From Candidatus Vogelbacteria bacterium (GTDB taxonomy: Bacteria > Patescibacteriota > Minisyncoccia > Phycocordibacterales > XYD1-FULL-46-19): a stretch of DNA of 64,000 bases. Positions 51,577 through 61,955 of the stretch are shown piece after piece (within the stretch, counting starts at the first letter, position 1; the number at the start of each line of letters is the position of its first letter). Both the position numbers and the translations under genes were made by a program. The notes under the pieces are model-generated. The model worked only from the letters and a program-made list of their open reading frames with translations, did no database searches and was not told the DNA's origin. The stretch is taken from the NCBI GenBank assembly GCA_903878275.1, contig CAIRHC010000011.1, positions 19,116 to 83,115 of the forward strand, read 5' to 3'.

Positions 51577-53328
51577 TTATAGAACCTCGAAAGTCAAGTT
51601 TGTGTTTATCAATGGATTATTATCAGAATTTGACAAAATAGATATCCCACTCATTTTATATTTTCCTGGTGTAGTTCTTATCGCAATATTAAAACTAAAT
51701 TCTTGTTCAGCTCCTGGTAAAATTGTCATATATTCATAAAGTGAGGAATGCAACCAAATAAAATCTTCAGGGTGGAATGCGTAAGATCTAGGTATTGCAT
51801 TAACAACTAAAGGAGCCGTACCGATATTTTTTATTTTGAAATTTATGCTTGATTGATAGCCACTATTTATCTTTCCGAGATCAAAATTAGTTTTACTTAC
51901 TTGAATATTACTAGAGCTCGGAGTAACCAAATATCTAAGTTTAAGAGTTGGATCGCCAATCCATGTATTATAAAGAGATATTTTATTTCGCATTGCTTCA
52001 GCAAAATTAACACCCCTAGACAACAAGAACATATATTTAGAATCTTCTTCGTTGTAATTAAAATTTGCTACGACCGCAGTATCAGCCAAAGCCAGTAAAC
52101 CATCACCATCCGAAAAAACATAAGAAGCTGCCATATAATCAGCCTGATCAAATTGACCCAAAAGACACGATTCAAGTTGGTAAAACAGAGCTTTGGGCTT
52201 CATATCAAAGATACTATTGCTCGTGATATTATATTCATGTAAATTGCTTGATCCATGGTTATTTAATCTTACCCATTCATATTTTTTAGACAACTCGGTA
52301 AGATACCGAGAATCAATTTCTAAAGGATTAGTGTCAGATTTAGCTATTAATAACGAAGAGTTTGATAACGAGTAAAGAGTCCCAGGAAATACCCCCTTAT
52401 TCATTTCATCGTTAATATAATTATCAATTTGAGAGTCATCTAACTCACTACCTTTTGCTACGGTATTATAGTAAAGAAACTTTTTATCGTAAGTCAATTG
52501 ACCCGTACGATATCTATGATTTTTATCAAAATATTTTATCAAGGCAGTAATTTGATCAGTCTTGTTGTTAGGTTTTATTCTTGCAACCCAAGTTTTTTCA
52601 TACCAACTTGGACCAAATGCGCATGTTTCAAAGTCATAAAAACCATACTGATTATTATAAAGACAATTATTATCAATGTCCGCATAAAAATAATCAGATA
52701 TAAATTTGAGTCCAGGATCCCCAGCTCTAGCAAATTCAACATAAGGAAGATCTCCTATCAAAAAAATCCCATATAATCCATCTTTATACTCCGAAATTTT
52801 ATTCTTAATTACTGAAGGAGAACCCCATTCTCCACTCAACAAAGTTACATTGCCACCAGTATCTTTTTTTAGATCGTTGATAAAGGTACCGATACTGTTT
52901 TTTATAGAATTATACAATGCACTATCGACAAATATGAGCGTGTTTTTACGAACACAGACCCCACCACCACACAATATCGGGGCAAAACCATCTGAAGTAC
53001 TCGGATCAACTTTGTAGCCACCGGCGTTGTAAAATGTGACCACACGAGAAAGTTGAGTTAAACTTATCTTTTTTGTATCGTAAAAATTTGTTTTATAGGC
53101 ATTTAATTCGGCTAATTCTATTTTATAATTTTTGTCAGTATCAGCTGGATGATAAACAGGATTTGAAACAACAACAATAGCACCGAGTGTTTTTCCTTTT
53201 AATTGTTCGACGATAACCGAAAGTCTATTTATGATAGAGGTTAGACCATCTAAGGTACTAGCTTTTGAAACTTGTGGCAAAACCAAAAGACCTAAGACAA
53301 AAATTGCGATAACTAAATATTTTTTCAT
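51577..53328 (-). CDS. large hypothetical secreted protein (583 aa)
   Basis: Signal peptide MKKYLVIAIFVLGLLVLPQVSKA; no recognisable catalytic motif. Confidence 0.45.
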   Translation of the reverse strand: MKKYLVIAIFVLGLLVLPQVSKASTLDGLTSIINRLSVIVEQLKGKTLGAIVVVSNPVYHPADTDKNYKIELAELNAYKTNFYDTKKISLTQLSRVVTFYNAGGYKVDPSTSDGFAPILCGGGVCVRKNTLIFVDSALYNSIKNSIGTFINDLKKDTGGNVTLLSGEWGSPSVIKNKISEYKDGLYGIFLIGDLPYVEFARAGDPGLKFISDYFYADIDNNCLYNNQYGFYDFETCAFGPSWYEKTWVARIKPNNKTDQITALIKYFDKNHRYRTGQLTYDKKFLYYNTVAKGSELDDSQIDNYINDEMNKGVFPGTLYSLSNSSLLIAKSDTNPLEIDSRYLTELSKKYEWVRLNNHGSSNLHEYNITSNSIFDMKPKALFYQLESCLLGQFDQADYMAASYVFSDGDGLLALADTAVVANFNYNEEDSKYMFLLSRGVNFAEAMRNKISLYNTWIGDPTLKLRYLVTPSSSNIQVSKTNFDLGKINSGYQSSINFKIKNIGTAPLVVNAIPRSYAFHPEDFIWLHSSLYEYMTILPGAEQEFSFNIAIRTTPGKYKMSGISILSNSDNNPLINTNLTFEVL

Positions 53329-53370
53329 AAAAATTTTAGAAGATTATTAATGTTTTAATTTTAACATCGA

Positions 53371-53399
53371 TTGACTTTTTTATCTATAAAATTTAAGAT
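53371..53399 (+). promoter_or_regulatory. candidate sigma-70 promoter TTGACT-17-TAAGAT
   Basis: Seen directly in the divergent intergenic region; it would drive transcription toward the hairpin at 53578 and the mazF-like gene. Confidence 0.3.
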
Positions 53400-53540
53400 G
53401 TAGTCAAGATTGAAGATTGCTGTGGTTACCAAACACAGTCCTCATCGGATCAGCTTGCTGACTAATTCGATCAAGAAATAAGACGTCCGCCCACGCTAAA
53501 GCTTCGGCGAGATGAAAAAGTCGGGTGGACCCGCGGAGAT

Positions 53541-53558
53541 TTACCTGCCTCTGGCAGG
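53541..53558. repeat. variant copy (ttacctgcct-ctg-gcagg) of the palindromic unit found inside gyrB
   Basis: It shares ttacctgcct and the ggcagg arm with the gyrB copies. Confidence 0.4.
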
Positions 53559-53577
53559 ATTGAATAAAATCAATTTA

Positions 53578-53621
53578 CCGCCCCGACAAAATGCGCTAGC
53601 GCATTTTGTCGGGGCGGTTTT
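53578..53621 (+). terminator. very strong intrinsic terminator-like hairpin (19-bp perfect stem ccgccccgacaaaatgcgc/gcgcattttgtcggggcgg, 2-nt loop, UUUU) 45 nt upstream of the mazF-like start
   Basis: Seen directly. Confidence 0.6.
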
Positions 53622-53665
53622 GCTTACAGCTAAAACATTTAAAAAATGTTCGCCCAAGAAAAAAA

Positions 53666-54076
53666 ATGGAAAAAGATTATCAAAACTGGAATCAAATTAA
53701 AATCAATCTAAATAAAGAACCGGATGAAACTCGGCTGTTTTTTCATGAAAGAGAAATTTGGTATTGTCACTTAGGTAAAAATGTTGGTTTTGAGCAAGAC
53801 GGCAAAGGAAGTGATTTTTTAAGACCGATTATTGTTTACCGAAAATTTAATAATGAAATTTTCTGGGGAATACCTTTGACTAAAGCTACCAAACAAAACA
53901 AAGGGAAAAGCGAAAGATACTATTTCAGTTTCTCTTTTTTGCCAAATATTACGAGCTTAGCGATATTATCGCAAATTCGCTTAATTGACAACAAGAGATT
54001 AGCTCGGCATATGGGAGCGATCGAAGAAAAAGATTTTGAAGAATTAAACAAAAAATTCAAGGACTTATTGCCTTGA
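53666..54076 (+). CDS. MazF/PemK-family endoribonuclease toxin (no adjacent antitoxin ORF)
   Basis: REIWYCHLGKNVGFEQDGKGSDFLRPIIVY...GIPLT...SQIRLIDNKRL aligns by eye with the MazF core (IW..F.P..G.EQ.G.RP..V...P.T...Q...ID..RL); the start was taken at the internal Met of MEKDYQNW. Confidence 0.7.
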   Translation: MEKDYQNWNQIKINLNKEPDETRLFFHEREIWYCHLGKNVGFEQDGKGSDFLRPIIVYRKFNNEIFWGIPLTKATKQNKGKSERYYFSFSFLPNITSLAILSQIRLIDNKRLARHMGAIEEKDFEELNKKFKDLLP

Positions 54077-54194
54077 ATTTTTTGTTTTTATCCTCTACCT
54101 TTCGGTAGAGTCGGGCCGAAGCCATTTAGACCTAAAGTATACACCCAATTATTAGAAAGTCAAGTAAAAAAATTATTAAATAACAAATAAACTT

Positions 54195-55958
54195 ATGGAA
54201 AACATCGAAAAAATTCGTCACTCACTCGCCCATTTGCTCGCAATGGCGGTCAAAAATAAATATTCGGATGCCAAACTTGGAATCGGACCAACCATCGACA
54301 ATGGTTTTTATTACGATTTTGATTTTGGCACAGTCACGCCAGACGAAGCGTCACTTTTGGAATTAGAAAAAGATATGAAAGCTTTGGTCAGTCAAAATAT
54401 TACTTTTTCACGCGAAGAAATTTCTGCCGAGCAAGCCCGCGAACTTTTTGCCAGTGAACCTTACAAGCTAGAATTAATCGAAGAACTAGCCGAAAAAGGC
54501 GAGAAAATTTCTATTTATCGTTCTGGCGACCCGTCTTCTAACGATAGCCGGGTAACCTTTACTGACTTATGCGCCGGTCCGCATATCGAAAACACCAAGG
54601 AAATCGCGCGCGACGCTTTTCATATTACGCACATCGCCGGTGCCTATTGGAAAGGCAGTGAAAAAAATAAAATGCTCACCCGCATTTACGCGGTCGCTTT
54701 TGCCAACAAAAAAGATTTGGATGATTATATCGAGCAACAAGAAGAAGCTAAAAAAAGAGATCACCGAAAAATCGGCAAAGAATTAAAACTTTTTACTCTT
54801 TCTGAATTAGTCGGCGCTGGTCTGCCTTTGTTGCAACCAAACGGAATGATTATTCGCAAAGCCATCGAAGATTATTTATGGGAACTGCACAAAAATAAAG
54901 GTTACGACCGGGTCTGGACGCCGCACATCACCAAGAAAAATTTGTACGAGACATCTGGTCATGCCGCCAAATTCGGCGAGGAACTTTTCCGTGTTAAAGG
55001 TGGCGACGAAGAATTTTATATGAAACCAATGAATTGTCCGCATCATATGCAAATTTTTTCGGACAATCAATTTTCTTATCGCCAAATGCCCGTTCGTTAT
55101 TTCGAACCAGCCACCGTGTATCGCTATGAAAAAGCCGGGCAACTCGCCGGTCTCACCCGCGTCCGTGCCATCACTCAAGATGATGGTCACTTATTTTGTC
55201 GCGTCTCGCAAATCAATGAAGAGGTCAGTACGATTGTCGAAATAATTAAAAAATTCTACACGACAATGAATATGATGGAAGATTATTGGGTCAGATTGTC
55301 TGTCCGTGGCGAAGATAAAAGTCTGTATCTTGGTGGCGATGAAGTCTGGGATAAAGCGGAACAAGCTTTGGAGCAGGCGGCAAAAGAAAATAATTTGAAT
55401 TACAAACGTACCGAGGGCGAAGCCGCTTTTTATGGACCAAAACTGGACTTTATGTTTAAAGATGCCATCGGTCGGCAGTGGCAACTCGCCACCATCCAGT
55501 GTGATTTCAATTTACCGGAAAGATTTGATCTATCTTTTACCAATGAAAAAGGCGAGCAAGAACGACCGGTGGTAATTCATCGCGCCATTTCCGGCTCACT
55601 CGAAAGATTTATGGGTGTGGTCATCGAACATTACGCCGGCAATTTTCCGGTCTGGATGTCACCGATTCAGGTAAAAATTATTCCCGTTCGTAAAAATCAC
55701 AACGATTACGCCAAGAAAATTTCTGACGAATTAAAAGCGCTGGATATCCGCGTCGAATTTGACGACAGCGACGAAGGAATGGGCAAAAAAATCCGCGACG
55801 GTAAAGTGAATAAAGTGCCGTATATGATTGTCATCGGTGACAAAGAAAAGGAAGAACAAAATATCACCGTTGAAATTCGCGGAGCAGAAAAAGGGGCTAA
55901 ATTTAATCTACCAGATTTCATCACCAAAATTTCCGGAGAAATCAAAGAGAGAAAATAA
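54195..55958 (+). CDS. thrS: threonyl-tRNA synthetase (no N-terminal TGS domain)
   Basis: It starts directly in the editing domain (HSLAHLLAMAV); class II motifs and a C-terminal anticodon-binding domain follow; 587 aa. Confidence 0.9.
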   Translation: MENIEKIRHSLAHLLAMAVKNKYSDAKLGIGPTIDNGFYYDFDFGTVTPDEASLLELEKDMKALVSQNITFSREEISAEQARELFASEPYKLELIEELAEKGEKISIYRSGDPSSNDSRVTFTDLCAGPHIENTKEIARDAFHITHIAGAYWKGSEKNKMLTRIYAVAFANKKDLDDYIEQQEEAKKRDHRKIGKELKLFTLSELVGAGLPLLQPNGMIIRKAIEDYLWELHKNKGYDRVWTPHITKKNLYETSGHAAKFGEELFRVKGGDEEFYMKPMNCPHHMQIFSDNQFSYRQMPVRYFEPATVYRYEKAGQLAGLTRVRAITQDDGHLFCRVSQINEEVSTIVEIIKKFYTTMNMMEDYWVRLSVRGEDKSLYLGGDEVWDKAEQALEQAAKENNLNYKRTEGEAAFYGPKLDFMFKDAIGRQWQLATIQCDFNLPERFDLSFTNEKGEQERPVVIHRAISGSLERFMGVVIEHYAGNFPVWMSPIQVKIIPVRKNHNDYAKKISDELKALDIRVEFDDSDEGMGKKIRDGKVNKVPYMIVIGDKEKEEQNITVEIRGAEKGAKFNLPDFITKISGEIKERK

Positions 55959-56818: not shown

Positions 56819-58909
<2,091 letters not shown>

Positions 58910-61879: not shown

Positions 61880-61955
61880 TGGAGCCGGTGGCAGGGATCG
61901 AACCCACGACATCCACTTTACAAAAGTGGCGCTCTACCAACTGAGCTACACCGGC
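61880..61955 (-). tRNA. tRNA-Thr (anticodon UGU), CCA encoded
   Basis: Acceptor GCCGGUG/CACCGGC, D arm GCUC-AGUUGGUA-GAGC, anticodon stem CCACU/AGUGG with loop UUUGUAA, T arm GUGGG-UUCGAUC-CCUGC, discriminator U plus CCA. Confidence 0.9.

What the first reader, a model, noticed from the sequence alone, without database searches (positions are those of the whole stretch)
53371..54076. Solitary MazF/PemK-like toxin preceded by a structured leader ending in a 19-bp perfect terminator hairpin
The 137-aa product aligns by eye with MazF/PemK, but no antitoxin-sized ORF lies upstream or downstream. The gene is instead preceded by about 260 nt of GC-enriched, hairpin-rich sequence. A candidate promoter (TTGACT-17-TAAGAT, 53371-53399) would start an RNA running through small stems (ctgtg/cacag, cctgcc-tct-ggcagg). 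That RNA would end in an unusually strong intrinsic terminator only 45 nt before the start codon. This layout suggests either a small RNA, or a leader whose terminator attenuates toxin expression, possibly an RNA antitoxin. The cctgcc...ggcagg element is a variant of the palindromic unit found in gyrB.
Basis: partly seen in the sequence, partly recalled or inferred. Interest (0 to 1): 0.55.

Follow-up and report, generated by a model that had tools for sequence, protein, structure and literature searches.

The report
Toxin cassette inside a T-box leader
The structured "leader" is a threonine-tRNA-sensing T-box riboswitch that belongs to the threonyl-tRNA synthetase gene, and the apparently partner-less MazF-like toxin gene wedged behind it is a widespread cassette that always carries a small antisense RNA gene, the likely missing antitoxin.

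Summary
The interpretation needs re-centring.

**The leader (about 53406-53622, +)** is a Thr-specific T-box riboswitch, not an sRNA or RNA antitoxin.
- The specifier ACC sits in the apical loop of a short Stem I.
- It has the T-box bulge UGGA, helices A1/A2 that compete with the 19-bp terminator, and a Stem III purine string.
- It is homologous to leaders that lie directly before thrS in other Patescibacteria (profile hit E=1e-6). Rfam's T-box model misses this class.

**The PemK/MazF gene (53666-54076)** is an insertion between this riboswitch and thrS (54195-55958).

**The gene is not truly solitary.** In 87 of 87 homologous loci, and in the window, the roughly 100 nt after the stop codon encode a convergent small RNA of about 80 nt (window about 54129 to 54048, minus strand).
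- It has a conserved sigma-70-type promoter and UUCG and GNRA hairpins.
- It has strong covariation and a bidirectional terminator that straddles the toxin's stop codon.

No protein antitoxin gene is conserved nearby, and flanking genes differ between loci. I read the cassette as a MazF-family toxin paired with an RNA antitoxin. Whether the RNA acts by antisense pairing or by binding the toxin is unresolved. In this lineage the cassette sits under T-box control by accident of insertion. No experiment supports this yet.

The parts
53371..53399 (+). Sigma-70-like promoter of the leader (TTGACT-17-TAAGAT). The start site is inferred near 53406.
   Evidence: Consensus scan. L082 has TTGACA-17-TATTAA at the same place.
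53406..53622 (+). Thr-specific T-box riboswitch leader, natively the thrS leader.
   Evidence: An nhmmer profile built from 9 other Patescibacteria thrS leaders gives a single hit in the 64-kb window, 53412-53624 (+), E=1e-6. The syntenic L082 leader scores 22 bits, E=0.004, with Rfam T-box.
53419..53439 (+). Short Stem I: GCUGUG / CACAGU with apical loop GUUACCAAA. The specifier ACC (Thr) is at 53428-53430, followed by the conserved purine A. The hairpin is preceded by GAUUG.
   Evidence: The equivalent hairpin with ACC in the loop and fully different stems is found in 8 of 10 leaders.
53480..53512 (+). Stem III (UCCGCC...GGCGAGA with a nested GC-UAAA-GC / UUCG segment). It is flanked by the purine string AAGACG on the 5' side and an A-rich run on the 3' side.
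   Evidence: Sequence inspection. The motif definition RRRxG-stem III-AA comes from PMC7583486.
53520..53536 (+). T-box core: helix A1 5' strand GUCGGG (53520-25), 7-nt bulge UGGACCC (53526-32), helix A2 5' strand GCGG (53533-36).
   Evidence: UGGA is complementary to the UCCA-3' end of the tRNA-Thr encoded in the window.
53537..53577 (+). 41-nt insertion on top of helix A2. It holds hairpin CCUGCC-UCU-GGCAGG (53544-58, a variant of a palindromic unit found elsewhere in the window) and hairpin AUUGA-AUAAAA-UCAAU (53559-74).
   Evidence: L082 has only 19 nt here.
53577..53622 (+). Intrinsic terminator: 19-bp perfect stem, loop CUAG, then UUUU. Its 5' arm holds A2-3' (CCGC, 53578-81) and A1-3' (CCCGAC, 53582-87), so terminator and antiterminator are mutually exclusive.
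   Evidence: (terminator -49.0 against antiterminator -25.6 kcal/mol).
53629..53662 (+). 35-nt piece of thrS 5' UTR (CTAAAACATTTAAAAAATGTTCGCCCAAGAAAA). Here it precedes the PemK ATG. In L082 it lies after the cassette, directly before the thrS ATG.
   Evidence: blastn 97% over 35 nt, E=1.6e-11. Sequences.
53666..54076 (+). PemK/MazF-family gene, 136 aa, promoterless. It has 32% G+C against 40% for the window.
   Evidence: The catalytic-type Arg (R53 in LRP) and Thr (T72 in IPLTK) are at least 90% conserved.
54050..54083 (.). Hairpin P3 (AAAAAAUUCAAGG-8 nt-CCUUGAAUUUUUU) flanked by A and U runs, read as a bidirectional terminator. It overlaps the last 8 codons and the stop codon of PemK.
   Evidence: 13 of 15 pairs show changes on both sides.
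54045..54129 (-). Convergent small RNA, about 80 nt, the candidate RNA antitoxin. Its 5' end is ACAAAU-like. P1 is GGC-UUCG-GCC (54114-54123). P2 is CUCUACC-GAAA-GGUAGAG (54093-54110). An A-rich linker follows, then the P3 terminator.
   Evidence: Alignment A2. Pair counts. Strand asymmetry. CM R1 hit 54040-54135 (-) at 94.5 bits. 87 of 87 PemK loci have it.
54136..54163 (-). Promoter of the small RNA: TTGACT (54163-54158), 16 nt, TATACT (54141-54136).
   Evidence: The hexamers are conserved and the spacer is not across 74 loci (consensus cTTGACA-N17 with TGn-TATACT).
54195..55958 (+). thrS (threonyl-tRNA synthetase), the gene the T-box natively controls. No separate promoter was detected between the cassette and thrS.
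   Evidence: Pfam tRNA-synt_2b, HGTP_anticodon, tRNA_SAD. Promoter scan.
61880..61955 (-). tRNA-Thr(UGU) with discriminator U and encoded CCA. It shows that tRNA-Thr of this organism ends in UCCA, matching UGGA of the T-box bulge.

Best explanation
Two independent RNA devices flank an inserted toxin gene.

**1. The leader is a T-box riboswitch.** The roughly 215-nt leader (53406-53622) is a transcription-attenuating T-box that senses uncharged tRNA-Thr.
- The anticodon pairs with ACC in the apical loop of a short Stem I.
- The tRNA's free UCCA-3' end pairs with UGGA in the 7-nt bulge.
- That pairing stabilises antiterminator helices A1/A2 against the 19-bp terminator.
- The riboswitch belongs to thrS.

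**2. The toxin gene is part of an inserted cassette.** A promoterless cassette of about 500 bp sits between the riboswitch and thrS. It holds a MazF/PemK-family endoribonuclease gene and, convergent to it, a small RNA of about 80 nt. The small RNA has its own strong promoter and shares a bidirectional terminator hairpin with the last codons of the toxin gene. I propose that this RNA is the antitoxin. It would be made constitutively and would keep PemK in check. It could do so by pairing with the 3' end of the toxin mRNA (type I-like), by binding the toxin protein (type III-like), or both.

**Consequence here.** Toxin transcription, and probably thrS transcription by read-through, is gated by tRNA-Thr charging.

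**Shown computationally:** T-box homology and anatomy; the existence, strand, structure and obligatory linkage of the small-RNA gene; the MazF-family assignment; the absence of a conserved protein partner.

**Inferred:** toxicity, antitoxin function, its mechanism, and read-through into thrS.
For: **T-box**
- The core is GGGUGGACCCGCG.
- All 10 compared Patescibacteria leaders have A1 (4-6 bp, different sequence in each), a 7-nt bulge UGGA(A/C)CC and A2. In 8 of them the A1 3' strand lies inside the downstream terminator; in L033 and L046 the terminator is poorly defined.
- A hairpin with ACC in its loop occurs in 8 of 10 leaders, with unrelated stems.
- tRNA-Thr has discriminator U followed by CCA.
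- A profile built without the window finds exactly this site at E=1e-6.
- The same core lies 94-360 nt upstream of thrS in CPR, Firmicutes and Chloroflexi loci.
- Firmicute controls reach 91-122 bits with Rfam T-box, and CPR leaders reach 18-31 bits.
- The terminator is 23 kcal/mol more stable than the antiterminator.

**Cassette and small RNA**
- nhmmer finds the 3' element in 80 of 86 loci, although the proteins are only 50-60% identical.
- The CM finds it on the minus strand at the PemK 3' end in 87 of 87 loci. It finds it nowhere in 49 thrS loci without PemK.
- 93.9% of cells are paired, 19 of 25 pairs have double changes, and 0 of 500 shuffles reach this. Slid controls give 35-59%.
- G-U pairs number 107 on the minus strand against 23 on the plus strand. 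GNRA loops number 57 of 73 against 0. UUCG occurs in 70 of 73.
- The -35, extended -10 and -10 are conserved while the spacer is not.
- The RNA is not coding: AUG is ACG in 17 of 73, and ORF length and frame vary.
- Upstream sequence is not conserved, and the PemK ATG often lies 0-25 nt after an unrelated co-directional gene.
- Downstream genes are diverse housekeeping genes.
- L082 is syntenic: dnaE, T-box, PemK, sRNA, thrS.
Against: - There is no expression or toxicity data of any kind.
- The window's bulge reads UGGACCC instead of the canonical UGGNACC. The A2 base pair next to the bulge is G-C, not the G-U described as the aminoacyl sensor (PMC7583486). The switch could therefore be impaired.
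- Rfam's T-box model gives no hit on the window even at E<=10.
- Short, apical-loop Stem I has been described mainly for translational T-boxes, so a terminator-coupled version is unproven.
- The P3 hairpin looks like a terminator on the plus strand too. It would block thrS unless it is leaky, and no other thrS promoter was found.
- The near-invariance of ACAAAUGGCUUCGGCCCGAC in the small RNA is not explained by simple cis-antisense action.
- No pairing with the toxin's translation start was detected (median z = 0.13).
- T-box control of PemK occurs in only 2 of 88 loci, so it is probably incidental.
Confidence: 0.6

Rival explanations
1. One reading: the leader is a stand-alone sRNA or an RNA antitoxin (type III-like) dedicated to PemK, ending at the 19-bp terminator.
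For: - A promoter, a strongly folding 220-nt RNA and a terminator directly precede the toxin gene.
- Type III systems have an antitoxin RNA plus terminator upstream of a MazF-fold toxin (PMC5367252).
Against: - The leader is homologous to thrS leaders in genomes without PemK.
- It has every T-box discriminator element.
- Nothing upstream of PemK is conserved in the other PemK loci; only L082 shares the leader.
- There are no tandem repeats.
Confidence: 0.03
2. The conserved 3' element is not an RNA gene. It is a DNA-level site (a recombination or integration site of a mobile cassette), or simply the plus-strand 3' UTR and terminator of PemK.
For: - The behaviour is cassette-like, with many insertion contexts.
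- The sequence is palindromic.
- P3 followed by a U-run also reads as a terminator on the plus strand.
- The sequence is very highly conserved.
Against: - The -35 and -10 hexamers are conserved at fixed spacing while the spacer is variable.
- UUCG and GNRA tetraloops exist only on the minus strand.
- G-U pairs favour the minus strand by 107 to 23.
- Compensatory changes occur in P2.
Confidence: 0.07
3. The small RNA is real but is not an antitoxin. The PemK-like protein could be a non-toxic, dedicated RNA-processing or RNA-binding protein whose substrate or partner is this RNA. Alternatively, the RNA could mainly insulate or tune transcription of the host operon into which the cassette is inserted.
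For: - About 20 nt of single-stranded and hairpin sequence (ACAAAUGGCUUCGGCCCGAC) is nearly invariant, which suggests protein recognition.
- The cassette sits inside essential operons without obvious harm.
- The family has a 26-aa N-terminal extension that is absent from solved MazF proteins.
Against: - Catalytic-type Arg and Thr and the GxEQxG..RP motif are retained.
- The layout (a strong promoter for the RNA, none for the protein, convergent genes, a shared terminator) is the classical toxin/RNA-antitoxin layout (PMC7472228).
Confidence: 0.22
4. The T-box in this window is a decaying relic. Because of the ACC-to-CCC change in the bulge, the G-C closing pair and the 41-nt insertion in A2, it no longer responds to tRNA. 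It then acts as a constitutive, leaky terminator in front of PemK and thrS.
For: - The deviations from the canonical discriminator are listed.
- Rfam gives no hit.
- L089, a relative, has PemK-thrS with no T-box at all.
- The closest ThrRS relatives L001-L005 lack a T-box.
Against: - All helices, the specifier hairpin, UGGA and the Stem III purine string are intact.
- A G-C closing pair also occurs in L082, L042 and L037.
- Large A2 insertions occur in L078 (60 nt) and are described for other short-Stem-I T-boxes.
- thrS is essential and has no other detected promoter.
Confidence: 0.15

Closest known systems
T-box riboswitch (Rfam RF00230), in particular thrS T-boxes of Firmicutes and the short-Stem-I T-boxes of Actinobacteria (ileS)
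   Same: - The specifier codon matches the downstream aminoacyl-tRNA synthetase gene.
- A 7-nt bulge with UGGN pairs to the tRNA NCCA end.
- A1/A2 antiterminator competes with the terminator.
- A Stem III purine string is present.
- The apical-loop specifier matches what is described for short Stem I (PMC7583486).
   Different: - There is no long Stem I with a distal tRNA-elbow platform, yet the expression platform is an intrinsic terminator. Short Stem I has been described mostly with translational control.
- The bulge is UGGACCC, not UGGNACC.
- The A2 closing pair is G-C.
- A2 carries a 41-nt insertion.
- The score is far below Rfam's gathering threshold.
- The first gene after the switch is a toxin gene, not the synthetase gene.
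MazF/PemK/Kid type II toxins (Pfam PF02452; B. subtilis EndoA, 4MDX)
   Same: - The sequence family and predicted fold match.
- The GxEQxG..RP motif and a P-x-T motif at the catalytic positions are conserved.
   Different: - No MazE/PemI/Kis-type antitoxin gene is adjacent in any of 88 loci.
- The family has an extra N-terminal segment of about 26 aa with an invariant Trp.
- The gene has no promoter of its own.
- It is always paired with a convergent small-RNA gene.
Type I toxin-antitoxin loci with convergent RNAs sharing a bidirectional terminator (par of pAD1: Fst / RNA II; also txpA/RatA and bsrG/SR4)
   Same: - The toxin mRNA and a small RNA are convergent.
- Their 3' ends overlap in a shared intrinsic terminator hairpin.
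- The small RNA has a strong promoter of its own (PMC7472228).
   Different: - The toxin is a 136-aa MazF-fold RNase, not a small membrane peptide.
- No second pairing site at the toxin's translation start was detected.
- The non-overlapping part of the RNA is nearly invariant in sequence.
Type III toxin-antitoxin systems (ToxIN, CptIN, TenpIN)
   Same: An RNA antitoxin for an endoribonuclease toxin with a MazF/Kid-like fold. The sequence-invariant RNA segment would fit direct protein binding.
   Different: - The RNA is a single unit, not tandem repeats.
- It lies downstream on the opposite strand, not upstream on the same strand.
- The toxin is PF02452, not the ToxN family.

Membership tests
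T-box riboswitch | T-box sequence forming a 7-nt bulge whose first four bases (UGGN) pair with the tRNA 3'-NCCA, with N matching the discriminator base | tested here: met
   The bulge is UGGACCC at 53526-32. tRNA-Thr in the window ends ...U-CCA. All 10 CPR thrS leaders, and the Firmicute and Chloroflexi thrS leaders, carry UGGA.
T-box riboswitch | The last three bases of the bulge are ACC | tested here: not met
   The window has CCC. The nine other leaders have ACC. This is a single A-to-C difference.
T-box riboswitch | Antiterminator (A1 + A2) mutually exclusive with a downstream terminator or sequestrator | tested here: met
   The A1 3' and A2 3' strands (53578-87) are the 5' arm of the 19-bp terminator. 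Energies are -25.6 against -49.0 kcal/mol.
T-box riboswitch | Specifier codon, followed by a purine, matching the amino acid of the regulated gene | tested here: met
   ACC-A lies in the apical loop at 53428-31, and thrS is downstream. ACC is in an equivalent loop in 8 of 10 leaders with covarying stems.
T-box riboswitch | Long Stem I with K-turn and distal interdigitated T-loop platform for the tRNA elbow | tested here: not met
   Stem I is a 5-6-bp hairpin. This is the short Stem I type described in PMC7583486.
T-box riboswitch | Stem III flanked by a purine string (5'-RRRxG ... AA-3') | tested here: met
   AAGACG-stem-AGAUGAAAAA in the window. AAGUG or GAGUG occur in L042, L078 and L010. 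This rests on inspection only.
T-box riboswitch | G-U wobble as the A2 pair next to the bulge (aminoacyl sensor) | tested here: not met
   The pair is G-C in the window, L082, L042 and L037. It is G-U in L032, L010 and L006.
T-box riboswitch | Reaches Rfam RF00230 gathering score (93 bits) | tested here: not met
   The window gives no hit at E<=10. L082 scores 22 bits, L032 31, L006 25 and L037 18.5. Firmicute controls score 91-122 bits.
T-box riboswitch | Uncharged cognate tRNA promotes read-through | not testable with these tools
   This needs in vitro transcription or a reporter assay.
MazF/PemK toxin (PF02452) | Significant match to the family profile and the MazF fold | tested here: met
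   Pfam 35.4 bits against a cut-off of 23.1. PDB profile hit to EndoA at E=3e-4. The Foldseek top 50 are all MazF, but the model has pLDDT of only 56.
MazF/PemK toxin (PF02452) | Adjacent cognate protein antitoxin (MazE/PemI/Kis), as in type II modules | tested here: not met
   There is no conserved ORF on either side in 88 loci, and the neighbours are unrelated housekeeping genes.
MazF/PemK toxin (PF02452) | Sequence-specific endoribonuclease activity that arrests growth | not testable with these tools
   Only the conservation of R53 and T72 (at least 90%) is shown.
Type I toxin-antitoxin | Antisense RNA gene overlapping the toxin mRNA, with its own promoter | tested here: met
   The promoter, structure and terminator are conserved, and the overlap covers the last 8 codons plus the 3' UTR. 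Transcription itself was not observed.
Type I toxin-antitoxin | Toxin is a small hydrophobic peptide (most families) | tested here: not met
   The toxin is a 136-aa soluble MazF-family protein.
Type III toxin-antitoxin | Antitoxin is an array of tandem RNA repeats upstream of the toxin gene and is processed by the toxin | tested here: not met
   There is no repeat array in 53300-54250. The RNA is single-copy, downstream and on the opposite strand.
Type III toxin-antitoxin | RNA binds and inhibits the toxin protein directly | not testable with these tools
   The invariant 20-nt segment of the RNA is compatible with this but is not evidence for it.

The most novel reading that the evidence does not exclude
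A MazF/PemK-family RNase in Patescibacteria is neutralised not by a MazE-type protein but by a dedicated, convergently encoded, structured small RNA of about 80 nt, at least partly through direct, sequence-specific binding. This would be a new toxin-antitoxin architecture: a type II toxin, a type I layout and type III-like chemistry.

The module spreads as a promoterless cassette of about 500 bp that borrows transcription from housekeeping operons. In this lineage it has landed behind a tRNA-Thr-sensing T-box, so amino-acid starvation would directly induce a toxin.
Probability: 0.3. Interest if true: 0.8.

Novelty: new variant of a known kind. Interest (0 to 1): 0.66.

Why it matters
**For toxin-antitoxin biology.** If the small RNA is the antitoxin, a large and very conserved MazF subfamily would have to be reclassified. 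This subfamily has over 1,200 sequence clusters, mostly from uncultivated Patescibacteria, and is routinely annotated as an "orphan type II toxin". The boundary between type I, II and III systems would blur. The linkage between protein and RNA is absolute in the sampled loci. The proposal is directly testable in E. coli with a 500-bp construct.

**For riboswitch biology.** The thrS leaders found here are T-boxes that the standard Rfam model does not detect. They combine an apical-loop specifier (short Stem I) with an intrinsic terminator. This extends where T-boxes occur and which module combinations they use.

**For annotation.** A "structured leader before a toxin" can belong to the next gene, with the toxin as a later insertion.

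Tried and rejected
- **Rfam scans.** Scans of the region and of related loci found no known family for the leader (only sub-threshold T-box hits in relatives). They found none for the 3' RNA.
- **Other RNA classes for the leader.** I considered tmRNA, RNase P, SRP and 6S. ARAGORN finds no tmRNA and Rfam finds nothing.
- **Closest ThrRS relatives.** blastn and nhmmer of the leader against L001-L005 show that they have no T-box, only short promoter regions.
- **A small protein encoded in the antisense RNA.** Rejected. The candidate ORF MASARL... has AUG replaced by ACG in 17 of 73 sequences, and its length and frame vary.
- **A second pairing site with the PemK translation start (as in par).** No signal: median z = 0.13, and 3% of loci fall below -2.
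- **Type III-like repeats.** None found.
- **Anti-phage defence families (PADLOC) and NCBIfam.** No match.
- **Sequence search of PDB with the single protein.** No hit. Only the family profile hits MazF.
- **AlphaFold2.** With 18 and with 111 sequences the models had low confidence (pLDDT 41 and 56). No structural conclusion about the N-terminal extension was drawn.
- **A separate thrS promoter inside or after the cassette.** None was detected by the consensus scan.
- **PemK homologue in L016** (36% identity). It has no small-RNA hit and is a different subfamily.
- **Literature searches.** Searches for T-box in CPR/Patescibacteria and for PemK with an RNA antitoxin found nothing specific.
Full report
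**Observation**

Every sequence feature in the finding is present.
- ORF 53666-54076 encodes 136 aa. It matches Pfam PemK_toxin above the curated threshold (E=1.3e-8).
- A profile of the family aligns to B. subtilis MazF/EndoA structures, with the GxEQxG..RP motif in register (E=3e-4).
- A low-confidence AF2 model (pLDDT 56) retrieves only MazF chains in the PDB.
- The promoter TTGACT-17-TAAGAT (53371-53399) and the perfect 19-bp terminator (53577-53618, then UUUU) are found by the scan.
- The leader has 48.7% G+C in a 40% window and folds 6.9 sd better than shuffles.
- No plausible protein antitoxin ORF exists on either side.

**Organism and context**

The window is from a Patescibacteria (CPR) genome. 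The best ThrRS relatives are Paceibacterota, Yonathbacteria and similar MAGs. The closest PemK relatives are annotated as Vogelbacteria. The gene order is dnaE, a 583-aa minus-strand gene, the leader, PemK, thrS.

**The leader is a T-box riboswitch of thrS**

*Core anatomy in the window.*
- The string AAAAAGUCGGGUGGACCCGCGG (53514-53536) matches the T-box core.
- GUCGGG (A1) and GCGG (A2) flank a 7-nt bulge, UGGACCC. They pair with CCGC-CCCGAC (53578-53587), which is the 5' arm of the terminator. Antiterminator and terminator therefore exclude each other.
- Their energies are -25.6 and -49.0 kcal/mol.
- UGGA is complementary to the UCCA-3' end of the tRNA-Thr encoded at 61880-61955.
- A short hairpin at 53419-53439 presents GUUACCAAA in its apical loop. 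ACC is a Thr codon and is followed by the conserved purine.

*Comparison with other thrS leaders.*
- A scan of one genome per species with ThrRS returned 80 loci.
- The core GGUGGAACC(G/A)CG lies 94-360 nt upstream of thrS in Firmicutes, Chloroflexi and several Patescibacteria.
- I compared 10 Patescibacteria leaders: the window, the syntenic L082, and eight from the ThrRS scan (L042, L032, L078, L037, L010, L033, L046, L006).
- All 10 have A1, the bulge UGGA(A/C)CC and A2. In 8 the A1 3' strand lies inside the terminator; L033 and L046 are less clear. The A1 sequence differs in every one.
- Eight have ACC in the loop of a hairpin with an unrelated stem, mostly preceded by GAUUG.
- The RRRxG-Stem III-AA purine string described for T-box discriminators (PMC7583486) is visible in the window, L042, L078 and L010.
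- A sequence profile built from the nine other leaders, excluding the window, finds exactly one site in the 64-kb window on either strand: 53412-53624 (+), E=1e-6.

*Why Rfam misses it.*
- Firmicute thrS leaders score 91-122 bits against a threshold of 93.
- The CPR leaders score 18-31 bits: L032 E=0.004, L006 E=0.13, L037 E=7.3, L082 E=0.004.
- The window scores nothing.
- The reason is visible. There is no long Stem I, and there are insertions in A2 (41 nt in the window, 60 nt in L078).

*How it differs from described T-boxes.*
[quoted passage not shown] These are found mostly in translational T-boxes. [quoted passage not shown]
- The leaders here combine a short Stem I with a clear intrinsic terminator.
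- Two window-specific deviations could weaken the switch. The bulge ends CCC instead of ACC. The A2 pair next to the bulge is G-C rather than G-U.

**PemK is an insertion into that leader**

- The syntenic contig L082 (Vogelbacteria; PemK 77% identical) reads dnaE, T-box leader with a canonical core, PemK, thrS.
- A 35-nt string (CTAAAACATTT..GCCCAAGAAAA) lies between the terminator and the PemK ATG in the window. In L082 it lies after the cassette, directly before the thrS ATG (97% identity, E=1.6e-11). The cassette therefore occupies different points of the same thrS 5' UTR.
- A third relative, L089 (PemK 70%), has PemK followed by thrS but no T-box.
- PemK has 32% G+C, against 42.6% for thrS.
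- Other CPR thrS T-boxes have no PemK. The other 85 PemK loci have no T-box or any other conserved upstream sequence.

**The cassette carries a convergent small-RNA gene**

*Distribution of the protein family.*
- The PemK family is large: 1,231 clusters at 90% identity, with members 58-79% identical to the query across many CPR lineages.
- A metagenome scan returned 80 more loci.

*Conservation of the 3' element.*
- The roughly 100 nt after the stop codon are conserved at the nucleotide level in 80 of 86 loci. That is better conservation than in the coding sequence.
- The aligned element (73 distinct sequences), read on the minus strand, has these parts in order:
  - cTTGACA, 17 nt of unconserved spacer, TGn-TATACT, then about 7 nt;
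  - ACAAAU;
  - GGC-UUCG-GCC (P1, nearly invariant);
  - CGA;
  - a 7-bp stem with a GNRA loop (P2);
  - an A-rich linker;
  - a 13-15-bp hairpin followed by a U-run (P3).
- P3 is built from the last codons of PemK (KK[L/F]K..LLP), the stop codon and the sequence just after it. It is flanked by A and U runs on both strands, so it reads as a bidirectional terminator.

*Structure statistics.*
- 93.9% of cells are paired.
- 19 of 25 pairs have changes on both sides.
- 0 of 500 shuffles reach the observed values.
- Slid controls give 35-59% paired.

*Strand.*
- There are 107 G-U pairs on the minus strand and 23 on the plus strand.
- GNRA loops occur in 57 of 73 sequences on the minus strand and in none on the plus strand.
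- UUCG occurs in 70 of 73.

*Covariance model.*
- It finds one copy in the window, 54040-54135 (-), at 94.5 bits. It finds none in 49 thrS loci lacking PemK.
- It finds a minus-strand copy at the PemK 3' end in 87 of 87 PemK loci, including loci not used to build it.

*Not a coding gene.* The RNA's AUG is ACG in 17 of 73 sequences, and ORF length and frame vary. Rfam has no family for it.

**Cassette behaviour**

- The upstream neighbour is co-directional in 51 of 61 loci. Its stop codon often lies 0-25 nt before the PemK ATG.
- The downstream neighbour is co-directional in 43 of 55 loci and often starts right after the sRNA promoter.
- Downstream genes are unrelated housekeeping genes: ATP synthase subunits, ThrRS (twice), Mur ligases, PolA, TopA, RuvB, TatC and others.
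- In Yonathbacteria the cassette sits between atpG and atpD.
- The unit is therefore [ATG-PemK-stop / P3 - sRNA (-) - sRNA promoter (-)], about 500 bp. It has no promoter for the protein and a strong one for the RNA.

**Mechanism**

*What is shown.* A MazF-family gene with conserved catalytic-type residues is obligatorily linked to a convergent structured RNA gene, and no protein partner is conserved.

*What is inferred.* The RNA is the antitoxin.
- The layout is that of type I loci such as par of pAD1, with convergent promoters and a shared bidirectional terminator (PMC7472228).
- The toxin, however, is a type II family RNase. I found no second pairing site at the translation start.
- The near-invariance of ACAAAUGGCUUCGGCCCGAC is not needed for cis-antisense action. 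It suggests recognition by a protein, possibly PemK itself, as in type III systems (PMC5367252). Unlike type III systems, there are no repeats.
- I cannot decide between the two modes.

*Consequence in this window.* PemK transcription depends on T-box read-through, that is, on uncharged tRNA-Thr. thrS has no detected promoter of its own, so it must rely on read-through of P3. This link is seen in only 2 of 88 loci and is most simply an accident of insertion.

**Novelty**

- Searches of the held literature found no description of T-boxes in CPR/Patescibacteria. They also found no MazF/PemK toxin with an antisense or RNA antitoxin. The library is incomplete, so prior work cannot be excluded.

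**Confidence in the separate steps**

| Step | Confidence |
|---|---|
| Leader is a T-box | about 0.9 |
| The small-RNA gene exists and is transcribed from the minus strand | about 0.85-0.9 |
| The small RNA is an antitoxin | about 0.55 |
| The T-box in this window is still functional | about 0.7 |

Noticed in passing
L090, L093, L088, L107, L114, L115, L150 and others, 3-25 nt beyond the sRNA -35 (plus-strand side). Not in the window or L082.: A DnaA-box-like 9-mer (TTATCCACA, at most 1 mismatch, either orientation) lies next to the small-RNA promoter in 21 of 74 loci. Control windows show it in 1% (binomial p about 2e-24). It could be a regulator site for the sRNA or part of the cassette end.
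   Followed up: partly
window 57036-57053 and 58242-58259; variant at 53544-53558: The perfect 18-nt palindrome CCTGCCTGCGCAGGCAGG occurs twice, each time preceded by TTTTA/CTTA-CCTGCC context. Both copies lie inside the 696-aa minus-strand ORF 56819-58909, which I did not identify; its position matches gyrB in L082. A shorter variant forms the hairpin inserted in helix A2 of the T-box. There are 3 matches against 0.01 expected.
   Followed up: partly
window 53629-53662 vs L082 2973-3007: The same 35-nt thrS 5'-UTR segment lies before PemK in the window but after the cassette in L082. This implies two insertion points, or a local re-insertion, about 35 nt apart in one leader. The PemK and thrS start regions share ATGGAAAA.
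   Followed up: partly
L089 587-1160: A third relative has the PemK cassette directly before thrS (thrS ATG 13 nt after the sRNA -35) but no T-box. A divergent gene starts about 50 nt upstream of PemK. thrS there must be transcribed through the cassette.
   Followed up: partly
L083-L088 (Yonathbacteria): The cassette sits inside the ATP synthase operon between atpG and atpD. A HicA toxin gene lies between two fragments annotated as the epsilon subunit (atpC). There appear to be several toxin insertions in one essential operon.
   Followed up: no
L090 (protein P0010, 233 aa) and L149: A small GIY-YIG nuclease gene lies immediately upstream of PemK. In L090 it is fused in frame to PemK.
   Followed up: no
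L154 2887-2983 (-); weaker hits at L094 1351-1415 (-) and L139 3771-3857 (-): These are extra copies or remnants of the small RNA. In L154 a second copy (50.9 bits) lies directly upstream of the PemK gene, as if left by a tandem or decayed cassette.
   Followed up: no
L006, L010, L032, L033, L037, L042, L046, L078, L082: Patescibacteria thrS leaders form a T-box class with an apical-loop specifier, GAUUG...CUAAUCU flanks and an intrinsic terminator. They score only 18-31 bits, or nothing, with Rfam RF00230 (threshold 93). The closest ThrRS relatives, L001-L005, have no T-box at all.
   Followed up: partly
window 53666-53745 (PemK residues 1-26): The family has an N-terminal extension of about 26 aa (invariant W8, conserved K3/D4/H9/K12, then FFHEREIW). 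It has no counterpart in solved MazF proteins. Its role is unknown. The structure models were too poor to place it.
   Followed up: partly
window 51577-53328 (-): A 583-aa protein with a signal-peptide-like N-terminus and weak DUF1573/Ig-like matches lies between dnaE and the T-box promoter. It is absent from the syntenic L082, where dnaE is followed directly by the T-box.
   Followed up: no
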